DNA from: Naegleria gruberi
Lineage: Eukaryota
Length of the DNA: 64,000 nucleotides
NCBI GenBank assembly: GCA_000004985.1
Contig: GG738928.1
Direction: 5' to 3' (one strand)
Shown here: in pieces, positions 5,158-11,525 of the stretch
Layout of the letters: each line of letters starts with the position of its first letter
Numbering within the stretch: position 1 is the stretch's first letter
Notes under the pieces: generated by a model
The model's database searches: none
What the model saw: only the letters and a program-made list of their open reading frames with translations
Told to the model about the DNA's origin: nothing
Made by a program: the position numbers and the translations under genes

Positions 5158-6231
5158 TTACTCGTCATCCTTGACAGGAAATTTAAAAGAATTGAGTCTA
5201 CTCTTCAATTCGAATAATTCTTCTCTATTAACATGGCTTCTAAGGAGAGAACTCGTAGAATTTTGCTTGACAAAGGCATCTTTTGAATTCAAGGCAGCCA
5301 AGAACTTTGGTGAAGAAGCTCTCTTGCCGAACATTCTTGGAGGAATGGCTGGTGCAGTGAATGTATTGACATTGCAACAAAGAAAGTCAATATCTATCAG
5401 TGAGTCTGTGGTTGTACTCACAGCATCACTCAAACATTGTGAGCTACTATAAGTATCAAAATCTGGATCATCATCTGAATAGATAGATATTGGTGTGTCA
5501 AGTTCTATGAGGCTGATTGACATCTTCCTCGATTCCTTACTAGAAGGAGCTATTGGAGCATTATCAACAAGGATAACGATACTACTTTTACGTGAGAGGG
5601 AAGGTTTACAAGGTTTTTGGTTGGTACAAATGGAGGATACTTGAGGAGGAACAACATGTTCAGTAAAATCAGAAAGAGAGGTACCTGAAAATACAGAACT
5701 GAAAGAGGAATCAAATGTTGTGGAAGTGACACTCTCTTTGAATGTCTCACTCAATGGTTCTATTGATGGAGAGGTAGGATAAAGCGCATCTAGGTCTACA
5801 AGCATGAACATGCTCTCACACTTGAAAACTTGAAGGAAGAGACTCAAAAAGACACTGAAGTAGAGATAAATTTTGGAGAGCAGGGAGGGAGAAGATGTAA
5901 TTGGGGAAGAAGAGGTAGTAGTTGGCAAAGATGCCACTTGTTGTTGTTGATCTTGGTTATCCTTCTCAACATGTTGGAATGACGCATCGTTCAAAGATGA
6001 TAATGAATTTGTAAGCGCAGATATTGTAGGGGAATATTCTTGATTCACTGCCTGGATTGGCGTTAATGGTGTTGTTGGAGGCGATGATATTACATCCTGT
6101 TGTTCTGCATTAGAACAACTCTCAAGCTTGAATCTTTTCATACTTTTTAAAGGAGAGAGAATGGTATGAGAGTTTGGTTGTGATGAGATGATTGTTTGCA
6201 AGGAAACGTTCGCATGACTTTCATCAAGCAT
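5158..6231 (-). CDS. Ser/Thr-rich membrane protein, member 1 of a local 4-gene family with conserved C-terminal ...ELFELKSRLNSFKFP motif
   Basis: 357-aa ORF with hydrophobic segment 'LLSKIYLYFSVFLSLFLQVFKC', Ser/Thr-rich low complexity, and C-terminus 'REELFELKSRLNSFKFPVKDDE'. Confidence 0.55.
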   Translation of the reverse strand: MLDESHANVSLQTIISSQPNSHTILSPLKSMKRFKLESCSNAEQQDVISSPPTTPLTPIQAVNQEYSPTISALTNSLSSLNDASFQHVEKDNQDQQQQVASLPTTTSSSPITSSPSLLSKIYLYFSVFLSLFLQVFKCESMFMLVDLDALYPTSPSIEPLSETFKESVTSTTFDSSFSSVFSGTSLSDFTEHVVPPQVSSICTNQKPCKPSLSRKSSIVILVDNAPIAPSSKESRKMSISLIELDTPISIYSDDDPDFDTYSSSQCLSDAVSTTTDSLIDIDFLCCNVNTFTAPAIPPRMFGKRASSPKFLAALNSKDAFVKQNSTSSLLRSHVNREELFELKSRLNSFKFPVKDDE

Positions 6232-6571
6232 ATTAATAGTCCCTTGAAGATATTAAAAGAGAGAGATTGTGGTGCTAATAAGAAAAAACAACAAGGTTGT
6301 ATTGAGGGTGATTGAGTGTTTTTTTTCTGTTGTTTTATCTCGCAATATATGTGCGTAGCGTATATGCGTGACTACGGTTATTAACTAAAATTATCGAAAT
6401 ATCCAACTATTAAGGTGCTAGGAAAGACATTTCTAGGTTTAGAAATTAATGCATCCATATATGTATTGCTTGTAAGAATCCAGCAAATAATTTTCTCTTA
6501 ATGTTTAAATCATACACTGTATGATCAAGAGGAGGCGAAAATTCAAAAATCCTGTGCATACATTCAATGTG

Positions 6572-7807
6572 CTATGGAAATGAATATAATTCCAATCTCT
6601 TCTTGAGCTCTCTAATTTCCTCAATATTTGAAAATGATTTGCTGAGAGATAGTTTTGGAGCTGTTGAAGTTGTTGAGAGATCGTCCCTTGAACCATGTCT
6701 GGTAGGATCACTCTTGCTCCTTCTTCGTTCCTGATTTGTTTCCTCATTACTGCAATTGTCAGTATGCACAAGAGAGGAAAACGAAAAACTTTTCAGTAAA
6801 TGTGTAAAATTCCTAAGGTACGGTATAGAGAGAGTTGAAGATGGTTTTTTCTGTTGAGCAAATGCGTCGTTTACAGTCATTGCCTTAGATGGTGAATGAT
6901 TCTTATTAGTGGAAGCAGCATTTGTACTGATTTTTCCCCACCATGTAAAATCATGTTCATGCATTTCCTGATTATTATTGAGGCATTCAGAGAGAAGATT
7001 ATCATGACCCAATGTTGAAGAATTAGTGGTAGATGAGGTTGGAGAATCGAAGGAACAAATTTCATCCAAAGCAGACATGTGATGACTGGCTCTGACAATG
7101 GAAATGACACAACCTGACAGCCAAACCAAGATGCTCCACATGCTAACTAGTATGCCAAAAATCCATGAAGAGCTGTTTTTTGATTCTCTCAGAGATGATT
7201 CTGCTCCTTCAGTTATCGTTATTGATGATGATCGTGATGGCTTCCTATTAGATGTATTAATCGTTGGTATTGTTATTGAATTATCTTCCTCTTTTGTGTT
7301 ATTACTATTACTCGTGCTATGATCACCTTCGATTAGTGTTTCGAATGTTTTTTCATTCATTACTGCATGTGCATGGTCATTATTTTGCTGCACATCTACA
7401 TGAAAAGGATATGTTTCTGAATGCTCCATGTAATGTTCTTGTTTTGACATGTCATTCATGAATTGTGAAATACTTGCTCTTCTATCATAGTGAGCAGAGG
7501 TTATATTATCAATGGTTGATGTTGTTGTTGAAGAAATTGTTGATGTTCTTCGACTAATAGGTATTGCAGAGTAGGAGGTAAATAGTGATGTTGTGGAAGA
7601 AAGGGAGCTCGTAGATTCATCAGGATTCAGAGTTGTTGATGGTGTAGTGGAATCTCCTTCGGTTATTGTCGTTAGCTGTTGTTGTTCATCATTAGTTTCA
7701 TCAATATACGATGAAACATCCAACAAGGTTTCGTTCAGATTAGTTTCTCTTTTCGTTTTGAATTGAGAAAGATGTATCATCATGAATATAACATGTATTT
7801 TAAACAA
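6572..7807 (-). CDS. Ser/Thr-rich membrane protein, family member 2 (C-terminus ...EEIRELKKRLELYSFP)
   Basis: 411-aa ORF with hydrophobic segment 'SSWIFGILVSMWSILVWLSGCVISIV'. It ends 'NIEEIRELKKRLELYSFP*'. It lies in tandem with members 1 and 3 on the same strand. Confidence 0.55.
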   Translation of the reverse strand: MFKIHVIFMMIHLSQFKTKRETNLNETLLDVSSYIDETNDEQQQLTTITEGDSTTPSTTLNPDESTSSLSSTTSLFTSYSAIPISRRTSTISSTTTSTIDNITSAHYDRRASISQFMNDMSKQEHYMEHSETYPFHVDVQQNNDHAHAVMNEKTFETLIEGDHSTSNSNNTKEEDNSITIPTINTSNRKPSRSSSITITEGAESSLRESKNSSSWIFGILVSMWSILVWLSGCVISIVRASHHMSALDEICSFDSPTSSTTNSSTLGHDNLLSECLNNNQEMHEHDFTWWGKISTNAASTNKNHSPSKAMTVNDAFAQQKKPSSTLSIPYLRNFTHLLKSFSFSSLVHTDNCSNEETNQERRRSKSDPTRHGSRDDLSTTSTAPKLSLSKSFSNIEEIRELKKRLELYSFP

Positions 7808-9441: not shown

Positions 9442-10727
9442 GATGAAAAAGTTCTTGGTTTTGATGAAGGCGATGCTGATGAGGAATTTGATATTTGTTT
9501 ACAGAACAAATCATCAATGAATGTGGTGAACCAGTTCTTGAATCTGCTAGCAGATTAGAATGTCCAACAACAAGTTTCCTAATCACAACAACAAATCTCC
9601 TCTGTGTTGTTTTAAAAAGGAAGTAATTGGTAAATTGAAAATTATTGGTAAAATCTAACGAGAACACGTGATAAGTCGACCAGAGTCTGGATAATACGCT
9701 CCTCTCAGAACTTTGTTCCAATGATTAATAAAACAATCTTATATTGTTGCCTATTGATGTTTTGTTGGTTTGTTTTTTGAAAGAGAAACATCAACAATAC
9801 CTGTTGCAACCCAACAGCAAATTCGGAAGGAGGACAAATTTGTTTTTAGACACCTGGGTAGCACAAATGGTCACACTGCTATTCGCACAACAATGAATCT
9901 TAATACTGTGTGTTATATTTTAATAAGCACGCATTTCTGAAGATTGAGATTCTATGGCGCTTTGGAGTCTAATTCGGATCTTAATGTTTACAGAAGATAA
10001 ATGTTTAAGATATTAATAGTCATACCAATACTAATTATTGTCTTGGTCAAGTCTTGCCGTGATCATATTGCCGAATAACAGTTCTCATCAAAAAGTGTAA
10101 TATTGATGAATATGGTGATGAGGACAACATTCTAGATATCAATTTTTGACCGTATGAAATCCAAATGAATATCATAATGAATAGTAATGAACTGCATCTT
10201 GATCGTAAATGTTGAAGGGATCATATCAATTTGTAGAGAAAGGTTCCTTTTTCAATTAGGAAAATAACTGATGGTTTCTGAATTATTTCACCACATATCA
10301 AGCATGAAAATAAAGATCTACTCATCTGTTCATCGATGAAAGTAATCAATAAGTGGGTGAATGGATACAGCAACTTGAAGAAAGGTTTAGTCCTAGTAAT
10401 ACATGAAGACAGTTATTATGATCCTACTGATGATAATTAAATTGTCGTTGTATTACAATACTACAATAATACTTATTACCAAATTATTGACCTTGTATGC
10501 CATCTATTGAAACAGATCATTGTAACCAATTGGTCTCTTATCATTTTAATCCAAAAGTACTTTCTTTTTTGTGGTTGGTGTTCTTGCATCTTCCGTGTTC
10601 ACTTCTTTCTAAAAAAGGTCGTTCTTTTTCCCTGAATTGAGAAAATTGAAGCAAATCATGATAATAAATAGCAACGACTTCATTTCATATATTACAATCA
10701 AAACAAAAGAACAACAATCCTAACACA

Positions 10728-11525
10728 ATGATAAACACTTCTGATATTGCCACACAAAACTATTTCAATGATCATTCCATGTCATTGAAAATTCAATCGA
10801 TTTCGAATAGTAATTTCATCTTGCTTTCCTTCATGATGAGCATGTACTTGCTGACAGTTGGCTACTATTTAATCTTGCTGACAGAATGGTTCATCCATAA
10901 ACTCGTAGCTAAAAGACATTCTCTGTATAATAACAATAACTGTGTTGATGACAATTCGCCAACAATGATCAAAAACCAACAAGACGATAGTAATAATAAT
11001 AATTCTGTAATATATACAACAACAACCAACAACGAGTCATCACAACAACAATTAATTAATTCAGAATGTACATTATCCGAGACACCAGAAAATACAAATT
11101 CAAATAATAATCAACACGAAAATGATGAAAGCCTTGCTTCTTATATTCATCCAGATCTTTCTCCATCATCAGTAACTTCAACCTCCGAGAGTATTTTCAC
11201 CTCCAAACCAGCCACAGAGACTGTGCAAGCCGAATCTCTGCTCACCATCTTTAAAGAATTGGTTCAAAGAGTCATTGATATTGAAAAGGAGTGGACAAGA
11301 ATAATTTCTTCCCAATTGGAGAATAGCAAATTGGTTTACTATCATGATAGTTCTGATTCATCGTTGTGTTGTTCGAACTCTTCATCCTCCTCTTCTGATG
11401 ACTATTGTTATGAGAGTGGTAGAACAACTTTCCAGAATGTGAGAATGAGAAGAACAGCCAAATCACCAACCATGAAACGAATGAATTCCTTCCAATTTCC
11501 TCGTGGTATCAACTTTGCTCTGTAA
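10728..11525 (+). CDS. Ser/Asn-rich membrane protein, divergent family member 4 (C-terminus ...MKRMNSFQFPRGINFAL)
   Basis: 265-aa ORF with hydrophobic segment 'FILLSFMMSMYLLTVGYYLILLTEWFIHKLV'. Its C-terminal 'RMNSFQFP' resembles the 'RLNSFKFP' of member 1. It is oriented head-to-head with member 3. Confidence 0.45.
   Translation: MINTSDIATQNYFNDHSMSLKIQSISNSNFILLSFMMSMYLLTVGYYLILLTEWFIHKLVAKRHSLYNNNNCVDDNSPTMIKNQQDDSNNNNSVIYTTTTNNESSQQQLINSECTLSETPENTNSNNNQHENDESLASYIHPDLSPSSVTSTSESIFTSKPATETVQAESLLTIFKELVQRVIDIEKEWTRIISSQLENSKLVYYHDSSDSSLCCSNSSSSSSDDYCYESGRTTFQNVRMRRTAKSPTMKRMNSFQFPRGINFAL

What the first reader, a model, noticed from the sequence alone, without database searches (positions are those of the whole stretch)
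5158..11525. Local family of four paralogous membrane / Ser-Thr-rich proteins sharing a conserved C-terminal LKxRLxxFxFP peptide
Three tandem minus-strand genes (5158..6231, 6572..7807, 8191..9441) and one divergent plus-strand gene (10728..11525) share a layout. Each has a single hydrophobic segment and long Ser/Thr/Asn-rich low-complexity regions. Their C-terminal ends are near-identical: 'REELFELKSRLNSFKFPVKDDE', 'NIEEIRELKKRLELYSFP', 'MEEVIYLKERLENYKFP' and 'MKRMNSFQFPRGINFAL'. A short motif conserved at the very C-terminus of otherwise rapidly diverging paralogs suggests a functional tail signal, for example a sorting or interaction motif. I do not recognise this motif as a described family. 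Members 3 and 4 are head-to-head across a 1.3 kb AT-rich spacer.
Basis: seen in the sequence. Interest (0 to 1): 0.7.

Follow-up and report, generated by a model that had tools for sequence, protein, structure and literature searches.

The report
Naegleria orphan membrane proteins, shared tail
Four neighbouring genes of the amoeba Naegleria gruberi encode otherwise unrelated-looking, mostly disordered membrane proteins that all end in the same short peptide, which is most likely a docking handle for a shared cellular partner; the peptide is real and undescribed, but it is so far seen only in this one species and its function is untested.

Summary
The window is Naegleria gruberi nuclear DNA.

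The shared tail is far beyond chance. For m1-m3 the 17-aa score is z = 9.1, with 0 of 2000 shuffles reaching it. For the 9-aa core of m4, 0 of 20000 shuffles reach it. About half of the identical residues use different codons, so the conservation is at the protein level.

Nothing else in the proteins is detectably similar. No relative was found outside N. gruberi.

AlphaFold calls m3 disordered except for the hydrophobic helix and a helix in the tail.

The reference annotation fuses m3 and m2 through a predicted 467-nt intron. Its donor lies inside the m3 motif, so the fusion is probably an error.

Best reading: a species-restricted family of single-pass membrane proteins whose tails end in a docking peptide, E-E-Φ-x-x-L-K-x-R-L-x-x-[FY]-x-F-P. 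The peptide resembles the ESCRT-III MIM1 motif (LxxRLxxL[KR]) and contains an ERK-type FxFP. It strictly fits neither, and the partner is unknown.

Modest interest.

The parts
5158..6231 (-). m1: 357-aa ORF (NCBI model EFC36605 / NAEGRDRAFT_54265 starts at Met31, 327 aa). It is Ser/Thr/Pro-rich, has a hydrophobic segment at aa 115-146, and its tail reads ...REELFELKSRLNSFKFPVKDDE.
   Evidence: A second-strain copy (P0009) carries an in-frame 18-nt insertion and a conservative L->I change in the motif.
6572..7783 (-). m2: 403 aa from the first ATG (the ORF is open up to 7807). Its hydrophobic segment lies mid-protein and its tail reads ...IEEIRELKKRLELYSFP-stop. It is not annotated as a gene of its own; it forms the second 'exon' of EFC36606.
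8191..9441 (-). m3: 416 aa. The 31-aa N-terminus carries 7 N-x-S/T sequons, the hydrophobic helix spans aa 33-59, and the tail reads ...MEEVIYLKERLENYKFP-stop. It is annotated only as the first 'exon' of EFC36606.
10728..11525 (+). m4: 265 aa (EFC36568 / NAEGRDRAFT_75704, 'predicted protein'). The hydrophobic segment is at aa 30-52 and is followed by net positive charge. The tail reads ...TAKSPTMKRMNSFQFPRGINFAL.
5176..5226 (-). m1 tail motif REELFELKSRLNSFKFP
6575..6625 (-). m2 tail motif IEEIRELKKRLELYSFP
8194..8244 (-). m3 tail motif MEEVIYLKERLENYKFP. AlphaFold predicts a helix at aa 400-412 with pLDDT about 72.
11475..11501 (+). m4 core motif KRMNSFQFP. The N-terminal half of the family motif is absent. 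An S-P site lies 9 residues upstream of the first Phe.
5794..5889 (-). m1 hydrophobic segment PSLLSKIYLYFSVFLSLFLQVFKCESMFMLVD. It is borderline (KD 1.7) and contains Lys and Glu.
7085..7174 (-). m2 hydrophobic segment SSSWIFGILVSMWSILVWLSGCVISIVRAS (KD 2.2)
9259..9348 (-). m3 hydrophobic segment TILHIFYDWLLCLLNLIQLIFSVGRLASGL. AlphaFold predicts a helix at aa 33-59 with pLDDT 78-84.
10815..10883 (+). m4 hydrophobic segment FILLSFMMSMYLLTVGYYLILLT
7749..8215 (-). The 467-nt 'intron' (GTTAGA...AAAAG) implied by reference model EFC36606. It is probably not an intron but the last 7 codons and stop of m3, the intergenic DNA, and the first 11 codons of m2.
   Evidence: For comparison, a verified intron in the same window spans 50382-50425, is 44 nt long and has a GTAAGT donor.

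Best explanation
m1-m4 are a Naegleria gruberi-restricted cluster of tandemly duplicated genes. They encode small, largely disordered proteins with one hydrophobic, probably membrane-spanning segment.

The disordered parts have diverged beyond recognition. Selection has kept only a short C-terminal peptide, E-E-Φ-x-x-L-K-x-R-L-x-x-[FY]-x-F-P; in m4 only K-R-M-x-x-F-x-F-P remains.

I read this peptide as a docking motif: a short helix followed by an aromatic-x-Phe-Pro cap. It sits at the end of a tail on the cytosolic side and recruits one common soluble partner to whichever membrane these proteins occupy.

My most specific guess, at about 0.2 on its own, is that the helix works like an ESCRT-III MIM1 motif. 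It would lie in the helix 2/3 groove of an MIT domain (Vps4, Vta1 or another MIT protein). That would couple these membrane proteins to the multivesicular-body/ESCRT machinery, as the aquaporin-2 C-terminal helix does with LIP5.

Shown: the ORFs, the motif, its protein-level conservation, its C-terminal position, and the predicted disorder.
Inferred: membrane insertion, cytosolic orientation, docking function, and the identity of the partner.

The confidence of 0.5 applies to the general docking-peptide statement.
For: The motif is not chance. z = 9.1 with 0 of 2000 shuffles for m1-m3, and 0 of 20000 shuffles for m4. It occurs nowhere else in the six frames of the window.

Conservation is at the protein level. 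Of 9-11 identical residues per pair, 4-6 use different codons (Pro is CCT, CCA, CCG, CCT), and nucleotide identity is only 52-55%. No DNA repeat links the genes.

The ORFs look like maintained genes:
- They are 265-416 codons long in 34% GC DNA.
- The coding frame scores above the other two frames and above the spacers.
- In a 98-99% identical second strain the coding indels are multiples of three (18 nt in m1, 3 nt in the EF-hand gene). Intergenic indels are mostly not multiples of three (runs of 1, 2, 4 and 5 nt, with one 3-nt deletion).

Only the tail aligns between members, which is the usual pattern for a linear motif embedded in disordered sequence.

AlphaFold on m3 gives a mean pLDDT of 40. 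The only confident elements are the hydrophobic helix 33-59 (78-84) and the tail helix 400-412 (about 72).

Topology hints point to a cytosolic tail:
- The 31-aa N-terminus of m3 carries 7 N-glycosylation sequons and a single basic residue.
- In m4, net positive charge follows the hydrophobic segment.

Recognition cannot depend on a free carboxyl end, because m1 and m4 carry 5 and 7 extra residues.

Resemblance to MIM1:
- Published consensus: [DE]xxLxxRLxxL[KR], with LxxRΦxxL sufficient, and the USP8 MIT preference [DE][LIF]x{2,3}R[FYIL]xxL[LV] (PMC12057046).
- The membrane protein AQP2 uses LSERLAVLK to bind LIP5 (PMC5713225).
- The family's conserved helix positions L, R, L and aromatic fall on the four specified MIM1 positions. 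Glu precedes the first Leu in m1 and m2, and Lys follows the aromatic in m1 and m3.
- L..RL..Φ occurs only in m1-m3 among 15,361 aa of long ORFs in the window.

ESCRT I-III and associated proteins are reported in N. gruberi (PMC9949670).
Against: - No orthologue exists in the searchable data, so conservation across species is untested.
- No expression data were found.
- The third MIM1 leucine is an aromatic residue in all four members, and MIM1 says nothing about the invariant F-P.
- m4 lacks the first MIM1 leucine.
- The acidic residue is not at the consensus position.
- A profile of the tail finds no ESCRT-III C-terminus among PDB sequences. The best hit is a chance match to RMI1, E = 0.02.
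- The hydrophobic moment of the helix is not above that of shuffles.
- AlphaFold gives the m1 tail helix only pLDDT 36-40.
- m1 and m2 have 115-210 residues before the hydrophobic segment and no signal peptide, and the m1 segment is only borderline hydrophobic, so membrane topology is uncertain.
- No ESCRT late-domain motifs (P[ST]AP, YPxL, PPxY) are present in the tails.
Confidence: 0.5

Rival explanations
1. The conserved element is a MAP-kinase docking site of the DEF/FxFP type. The [FY]-x-F-P binds the F-recruitment site of an ERK-like kinase, which then phosphorylates the Ser/Thr-rich tail. The proteins would be membrane-tethered MAPK substrates or scaffolds.
For: - All four tails contain [FY]xFP. 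The F and P are two of only three invariant columns in the tail alignment; the third is Arg.
- DEF = FXFP binds the ERK FRS (PMC4897767).
- m4 has an S-P site 9 residues upstream of FQFP, within the 6-20-residue spacing I recall as typical for DEF sites (spacing rule from memory; site).
- The tails carry 2-6 S/T-P sites after the hydrophobic segment.
Against: - FxFP does not explain the equally conserved R-L three to four residues upstream, or the E-E-Φ-x-x-L-K helix.
- In m1-m3 the nearest S/T-P lies 42 to more than 100 residues upstream.
- Two members start the motif with Tyr rather than Phe.
- The four-residue pattern is unspecific, with 6 background matches in 13.9 kaa of other ORFs in the window.
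- MAPK D-motif-like strings are no more frequent in the family than in the background: 3.3 against 4.4 per 1000 aa.
Confidence: 0.12
2. The tail is a target helix for a calmodulin-, centrin- or myosin-light-chain-like EF-hand protein, possibly one of the two paralogous EF-hand genes that flank the cluster. The L-x-x-x-L-x-x-[FY] spacing would resemble a reversed centrin-binding hydrophobic triad.
For: - EF-hand paralogues lie at 3974-4885 and 13551-14537 on either side of the cluster.
- Their best structural relatives are calmodulin and myosin essential light chains.
- The L6/L10/aromatic13 spacing is visible in the sequence. The centrin triad itself is recalled from memory and was not tested.
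Against: - The helix has net charge 0 to -2, whereas calmodulin targets are typically clearly basic.
- There is no Trp anchor.
- Gene adjacency carries little weight in eukaryotes.
- The F-P is again unexplained.
Confidence: 0.07
3. The reference gene model is right. m3 and m2 are exons of one 800-aa protein, the m3 'tail' is partly intronic, and the motif is an internal or alternatively used module rather than a C-terminal signal.
For: NCBI/JGI model EFC36606 (P0010) joins ...MEEVIYLKER to ETNLNET.... A GT...AG intron at 8215..7749 reproduces the model exactly.
Against: - The unspliced reading continues L-E-N-Y-K-F-P-stop. That completes the family motif and ends exactly where m2 ends, which is very unlikely for intronic sequence.
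- The donor is GTTAGA and the intron is 467 nt. The one verifiable intron in the window, in the MutS gene, is 44 nt with a GTAAGT donor and restores LLLIDEFGKGT.
- The model is an automated 'predicted protein'.
- A prokaryote-style gene call on the second strain gives the 416-aa m3 alone.
Confidence: 0.07
4. The four proteins are not homologous over their length. A short 3' coding module spread between unrelated neighbouring genes, or arose by convergence, and it may serve a structural role such as self-association rather than docking.
For: - No similarity outside the tail.
- The hydrophobic segment sits at very different relative positions: aa 30, 32, 115 and 212.
- m4 shares only 9 residues.
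Against: - Four adjacent genes have the same composition, a single hydrophobic segment, and the motif always downstream of it and at the very end.
- There is no DNA-level repeat or sign of recent conversion.
- Tandem duplication followed by fast divergence of disordered sequence is the simpler history.
Confidence: 0.1

Closest known systems
MIM1 (MIT-interacting motif 1) of ESCRT-III CHMP1/CHMP2/Vps2/Did2/IST1, and MIM1-like helices in non-ESCRT proteins (AQP2 LSERLAVLK binding LIP5; baculovirus Ac93)
   Same: - It is a short helix at or near the C-terminus of the protein.
- The conserved L-x-x-R-L-x-x-Φ register coincides with the specified MIM1 positions.
- Acidic residues lie upstream, and Lys follows the last hydrophobic residue in m1 and m3.
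- There is a precedent for a membrane protein (AQP2) carrying such a helix.
   Different: - The last Leu is Phe or Tyr in every member.
- An invariant x-F-P follows that MIM1 lacks.
- Lys at -2 is conserved but is not part of MIM1.
- m4 lacks the first Leu.
- The carriers have no Snf7/ESCRT-III domain.
- No binding data exist.
DEF / FxFP docking site for ERK (as in Elk-1, whose SFQFP is quoted from memory)
   Same: The tetrapeptide [FY]-x-F-P lies in a Ser/Thr-rich disordered region. m4 reads SFQFP with an S-P site 9 residues upstream. The definition is from PMC4897767.
   Different: The family motif is at least 9-17 residues long with a conserved Arg-Leu and helix. Phosphoacceptor spacing fits only in m4, and two members begin with Tyr.
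Transmembrane adaptor proteins with a short ectodomain and a long disordered cytosolic tail carrying linear motifs (for example LAT/PAG-type adaptors of animal cells; general knowledge)
   Same: m3 and m4 have a very short N-terminal segment, one hydrophobic helix, and then 200-350 disordered residues whose only conserved feature is a short peptide.
   Different: There is no sequence relationship and no tyrosine motifs. m1 and m2 have long regions before the hydrophobic segment. Function is untested.

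Membership tests
MIM1 (ELM consensus [DE]xxLxxRLxxL[KR]) | Core L-x-x-R-[L/Φ]-x-x-L | tested here: not met
   m1 LKSRLNSF, m2 LKKRLELY, m3 LKERLENY, m4 TMKRMNSF. The first three specified positions are met in m1-m3, but the last Leu is aromatic in all four. No strict match exists anywhere in the window.
MIM1 (ELM consensus [DE]xxLxxRLxxL[KR]) | Acidic residue three positions before the first Leu, and Lys/Arg after the last hydrophobic residue | tested here: inconclusive
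   Position -3 from the first Leu is L/I/V. Glu occupies -1 (m1, m2) and -4/-5 (m1-m3). Lys follows the aromatic in m1 and m3, but Ser and Gln follow it in m2 and m4.
MIM1 (ELM consensus [DE]xxLxxRLxxL[KR]) | Helical peptide at the C-terminal end of the carrier | tested here: met
   The motif ends 0-7 residues from the stop. AlphaFold predicts helix 400-412 in m3 at pLDDT about 72, and helix 336-346 in m1 at low confidence.
MIM1 (ELM consensus [DE]xxLxxRLxxL[KR]) | Binds the helix 2/3 groove of an MIT domain | not testable with these tools
   No MIT-domain protein is encoded in the window.
ESCRT-III (Snf7 family) | Snf7/ESCRT-III core domain | tested here: not met
   No Pfam hit above threshold for any of the four proteins.
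DEF / FxFP ERK docking site | F-x-F-P tetrapeptide (aromatic substitutions tolerated) | tested here: met
   The four tetrapeptides are FKFP, YSFP, YKFP and FQFP. The pattern is unspecific, with 6 other matches in the window's long ORFs.
DEF / FxFP ERK docking site | Lies about 6-20 residues C-terminal to an S/T-P phosphoacceptor (rule from memory) | tested here: not met
   The rule is met only in m4 (S246-P, 9 residues upstream). In m1 the nearest site is 42 residues upstream, and in m2 and m3 more than 100.
DEF / FxFP ERK docking site | Binds the F-recruitment site of an ERK-type MAPK | not testable with these tools
   No MAPK is encoded in the window, and there is no binding assay.
Single-pass membrane protein | One hydrophobic segment long enough to span a bilayer | tested here: met
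   Kyte-Doolittle maxima over 19 residues are 1.73 (m1), 2.16 (m2), 1.85 (m3) and 1.79 (m4), with one segment each. The m3 segment is a confident helix, while the m1 segment is borderline. Insertion and orientation are not shown.

The most novel reading that the evidence does not exclude
R-Φ-x-x-[FY]-x-F-P, preceded by an E-E-Φ-x-x-L-K helix, could be a previously undescribed class of C-terminal linear motif in Heterolobosea. It would mark a larger, still unannotated set of fast-evolving membrane adaptors. It would couple them to a conserved machine, either an MIT-domain/ESCRT protein with an aromatic-accepting groove or a MAPK. If so, it would add a new motif class and a lineage-specific cargo or adaptor system in a deep-branching eukaryote.
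Probability: 0.2. Interest if true: 0.55.

Novelty: new variant of a known kind. Interest (0 to 1): 0.33.

Why it matters
If the tail is a docking peptide, it gives a handle on four orphan genes of a model free-living amoeba. It would be an example of how disordered membrane adaptors keep only a short motif while everything else drifts. It could also be a non-canonical ligand for MIT domains or MAP kinases from a lineage far from animals and fungi.

In practical terms, the motif already exposes a probable mis-fusion in the N. gruberi reference annotation: EFC36606 appears to be two genes. It also offers a simple pattern for finding further unannotated members.

The scope is limited. There is one species, four genes and no functional data.

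Tried and rejected
- **Intron directly after F-P.** The DNA after each motif shows no GT donor in a consistent phase, and there are plain stops, so the motif is truly terminal.
- **DNA-level repeat or gene conversion.** None was found among the four genes. Only the flanking EF-hand genes repeat.
- **Second shared motif SR-x-SSI-x-I (m1 213, m2 191, m3 109).** Its score of 47 is below the shuffle mean of 50.4, so it is not significant.
- **MAPK D-motif enrichment.** Not enriched: 3.3 against 4.4 per 1000 aa.
- **Late-domain and endocytic motifs (P[ST]AP, YPxL, PPxY, dileucine, NPF, DPF/W, FxDxF).** None occurs outside the hydrophobic segments, apart from isolated YxxΦ matches.
- **Homology searches.**
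  - Full-length m3: only a 99% identical copy from a metagenome.
  - Tail profile against 1.84 billion representatives: only m1, m3 and m4 themselves plus two chance repeat proteins, P0007 and P0008.
  - Tail alignment in the word-indexed database: no candidates.
  - Four-protein profile: only m1 and m4, with the candidate list saturated by low-complexity proteins.
  - Two metagenome DNA scans: nothing.
- **PDB sequence search with the tail profile.** Only a chance match to the RMI1 C-terminus, and no ESCRT-III tails.
- **Exact-protein look-ups of the NCBI models.** Not on record for retrieving genomic context.
- **Expression or literature evidence for the locus tags and accessions.** None found.
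- **Amphipathicity.** The hydrophobic moment is not above shuffles, so I do not call the helix strongly amphipathic.
- **Rfam scan of 3900-14600.** Only a sub-threshold snoRNA-like hit.

Full report
**Identity of the window.** Several ORFs match NCBI/UniProt proteins of Naegleria gruberi exactly.
- m4 (10728-11525, +) is EFC36568 / NAEGRDRAFT_75704 / D2W2T3.
- The flanking EF-hand ORFs are EFC36604 and EFC36607.
- The ORF at 11853-13172 is EFC36569.
- All four of these are named 'predicted protein'.

The DNA has 34% GC, is gene-dense and holds long uninterrupted ORFs. The bacterial-code ORF list is therefore usable, except for its non-ATG starts.

**Check of the observation.** The four ORFs, their strands and their C-terminal strings are exactly as reported.
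- A six-frame regular-expression scan finds [LIVM]KxR[LIVM]xx[FYW]x[FYW]P only in m1, m2 and m3.
- The shorter R[LIVM]xx[FYW]x[FYW]P adds only m4 and one unrelated internal site in the F-box protein.
- In all four family members the motif ends 0-7 residues before the stop.
- The best common 17-residue window of m1/m2/m3 is REELFELKSRLNSFKFP / IEEIRELKKRLELYSFP / MEEVIYLKERLENYKFP. Its BLOSUM sum is 91, against 52.9 +/- 4.2 (maximum 72) in 2000 composition-preserving shuffles.
- m4 shares only the last nine residues, KRMNSFQFP. These score 29.7 against a matrix built from m1-m3. None of 20000 shuffles of m4 reaches that, and the next best 9-mer in any ORF of at least 100 aa in the window scores 20.0.
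- Each protein has one hydrophobic segment and 30-37% Ser+Thr+Asn.

- The tails are 40-50% identical over 22 residues, not near-identical.
- m2 should start at the ATG at 7783.
- The 1286-nt spacer between m3 and m4 has ordinary composition, 32.3% GC against 34.1% for the window.

**Are these real coding genes, and is the motif selected as protein?**
- Among m1-m3, 4-6 of the 9-11 identical residues per pair are encoded by different codons. Nucleotide identity in the tail is only 52-55%.
- No DNA repeat connects the genes. The similarity is therefore old and maintained at the amino-acid level, not a recent conversion tract or a DNA element.
- The coding frame of each ORF scores above the two other frames and above the spacers in a codon model trained on conserved genes of the window. 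It scores lower than those conserved genes do.
- Contigs from an ENA metagenome (ERZ929261) carry a 98-99% identical second strain. In it, the indels inside coding sequence are multiples of three: 18 nt in m1 and 3 nt in the EF-hand gene. The intergenic indels are mostly not multiples of three: runs of 1, 2, 4 and 5 nt, with one 3-nt deletion. The tail motifs are kept, with one conservative L->I change in m1.
- I found no transcript or proteomic evidence.

**How far does the similarity extend?**
- Pairwise BLASTP, with or without low-complexity masking, aligns only the last 16-25 residues of m1-m3 (E = 0.002-0.004 in pairwise space). For m4 it aligns only 8 residues.
- A search for any other shared 8-mer gives only compositional matches.
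- A tempting second motif, SRKSSIVI / SRSSSITI / SRSISIKI, is no better than shuffles.
- The hydrophobic segment lies at residues 30-52 (m4), 32-61 (m3), 115-146 (m1) and 212-241 (m2).
- Paralogy therefore rests on the tail, the shared composition and layout, and the adjacency.

**Relatives elsewhere.**
- Full-length m3 finds only the second-strain copy.
- A profile of the tails run by HMMER over 1.84 billion representative proteins returns only m1, m3 and m4 themselves. The two other hits are chance matches inside unrelated repeat proteins.
- The remaining protein searches and two metagenome DNA scans found nothing.
- A paralogue sharing only the 17-residue motif would not reach significance in databases of this size. 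The rest of the N. gruberi genome was not available to me. The true family size in N. gruberi is therefore unknown, and the family may be restricted to the N. gruberi lineage.
- There are no Pfam matches for any of the four proteins.

**An annotation problem exposed by the motif.**
- m1 is annotated as EFC36605, starting at Met31.
- m3 and m2 are not annotated separately. EFC36606 (800 aa) joins ...MEEVIYLKER directly to ETNLNET... of m2.
- The only GT-AG solution that reproduces this model is an intron at 8215..7749. It is 467 nt long with donor GTTAGA, and the donor lies inside the m3 motif.
- Read without splicing, m3 continues L-E-N-Y-K-F-P-stop. This completes the family motif and ends exactly as m2 does.
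- For comparison, the one intron in the window that can be verified by protein conservation lies in the MutS gene at 50382..50425. It is 44 nt long with donor GTAAGT, and it restores LLLIDEFGKGT.
- I conclude that the fusion is most likely a gene-prediction artefact and that m3 and m2 are separate genes. RNA data would settle this.

**Structure.**
- AlphaFold2 without an alignment gives m3 a mean pLDDT of 40. It has only two confident elements: the hydrophobic helix 33-59 (78-84) and a helix at 400-412 in the tail (about 72). Y-K-F-P follows the tail helix and is not helical.
- m1 is low-confidence throughout, with a helix predicted at 336-346 at pLDDT 36-40.
- The hydrophobic moment of the helix is not above that of shuffled versions, and its net charge is 0 to -2. 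It is a mixed-charge helix with a Φ3/L6/L10/aromatic13 stripe, not a classical basic amphipathic helix.

**Topology (inference).**
- m3 has a 31-residue N-terminus with seven N-x-S/T sequons and a single basic residue.
- In m4, net positive charge follows the hydrophobic segment.
- Both features fit an N-out, C-in orientation, which would place the long tail and the motif in the cytosol.
- m1 and m2 have long Ser/Thr-rich regions before the hydrophobic segment and no signal peptide, so their topology is uncertain.

**What the tail could do.** Recognition cannot require a free C-terminal carboxylate, because m1 and m4 carry 5 and 7 further residues. This argues against PDZ-, TPR- or CAP-Gly-type recognition. 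Two named motifs resemble it.

(a) MIM1, the MIT-interacting motif of ESCRT-III tails.
- Published definitions: [DE]xxLxxRLxxL[KR]; LxxRΦxxL is considered sufficient; USP8 MIT prefers [DE][LIF]x{2,3}R[FYIL]xxL[LV] (PMC12057046).
- The membrane protein aquaporin-2 binds LIP5 through LSERLAVLK in its C-terminal helix (PMC5713225).
- A baculovirus envelope protein uses a C-terminal MIM1 to bind Vps4 and Vta1 (PMC11998489).
- The family reads (E)L-K-x-R-L-x-x-[FY]-(K). The conserved Leu, Arg, Leu and aromatic fall on the four specified MIM1 positions.
- L..RL..Φ occurs only in m1-m3 among 15,361 residues of long ORFs in the window.
- ESCRT components are reported in N. gruberi (PMC9949670).
- Against this reading: the last Leu is aromatic in every member, the invariant F-P has no counterpart in MIM1, m4 lacks the first Leu, no late-domain motifs accompany the tail, and a PDB sequence search with the tail profile finds no ESCRT-III tails.

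(b) The DEF/FxFP docking site for ERK (PMC4897767).
- All four tails contain [FY]xFP, and m4 has an S-P site nine residues upstream.
- Against this reading: the tetrapeptide is unspecific, with six other matches in the window. It explains neither the conserved Arg-Leu nor the helix. The phosphoacceptor spacing fails in m1-m3. D-motif-like strings are not enriched.

(c) A third idea is binding by calmodulin- or centrin-like EF-hand proteins such as the two flanking paralogues. The neutral-to-acidic charge of the helix does not favour this.

None of these could be tested directly. No MIT, MAPK or other candidate partner is encoded in the window, and complexes cannot be modelled here.

**Verdict.**
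- The family is undescribed: it has no Pfam family, and its members are either named only 'predicted protein' or not annotated as separate genes.
- The most likely mechanism is a conserved C-terminal docking peptide on the cytosolic tail of small, fast-evolving single-pass membrane proteins (confidence about 0.5).
- The partner is unknown. An MIT-domain/ESCRT link is my leading specific guess (about 0.2), and a MAPK F-site is second (about 0.12).
- The peptide fits no known motif definition strictly, so I class it as a new variant of a known kind, a helical C-terminal linear motif.
- Interest is modest. The scope is four genes in one species with no functional or expression data. The useful outcomes are a clean motif, a testable partner hypothesis, and a probable correction of a reference gene model.

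Noticed in passing
window 7749-8215 (-), with 6572-9441: Reference model EFC36606 / NAEGRDRAFT_59959 (800 aa) fuses m3 and m2 through a predicted 467-nt GTTAGA...AG intron. The donor lies inside the conserved m3 tail motif, so the fusion is probably a gene-prediction artefact.
   Followed up: yes
window 3974-4885 (-) and 13551-14537 (-): Two paralogous EF-hand genes (EFC36604, EFC36607) bracket the cluster. Both are calmodulin- or myosin-light-chain-like with long disordered N-terminal extensions. They share 70-74% nucleotide identity over 89-210-nt blocks, about 9.5 kb apart.
   Followed up: partly
L001 and L002 (ENA metagenome ERZ929261, run ERR1078381), matching window 8044-10071 and 4256-7042: A metagenome assembly contains contigs 98-99% identical to this N. 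gruberi locus, so a second strain exists. It has an in-frame 18-nt insertion in m1 and a few amino-acid changes. It could serve as a source of population data.
   Followed up: partly
window 50382-50425 (+): A 44-nt GTAAGT...AG intron splits a MutS-family gene into two ORFs (49082-50404 and 50446-50940). Removing it restores the LLLIDEFGKGT Walker B region.
   Followed up: partly
window 19904-20467 (-): A 187-aa ORF ends in a SHOCT domain (Pfam PF09851, E = 8e-10). From my own recollection this short C-terminal domain occurs mostly in bacteria and archaea, which makes it unusual in a eukaryotic nuclear gene.
   Followed up: no
window 37175-40477 (+): A 1100-aa ORF combines succinyl-CoA-ligase-like, ATP-grasp and GNAT acetyltransferase domains. 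From my own recollection this resembles bacterial Pat-type protein acetyltransferases or ADP-forming acyl-CoA synthetase fusions.
   Followed up: no
window 11853-13172 (+): EFC36569 has an N-terminal 150-residue Thr/Ser-rich region with repeated FG / SFG / GFG dipeptides, reminiscent of FG-nucleoporins. An unassigned C-terminal domain follows. It has no Pfam hit and does not carry the tail motif.
   Followed up: no
window 9471-9545 (+): A sub-threshold C/D-box snoRNA-like Rfam hit (ceN106, 25.9 bits against a gathering score of 60, E = 0.08) lies in the m3-m4 spacer just upstream of the m3 start. It is probably chance.
   Followed up: no
window 2215-2286, 16192-16264, 20755-20828, 21898-21969, 26431-26504, 57801-57875: Six tRNA genes (Met, Arg, Val, Pro, Thr, Ile) are scattered singly between protein-coding genes.
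   Followed up: no
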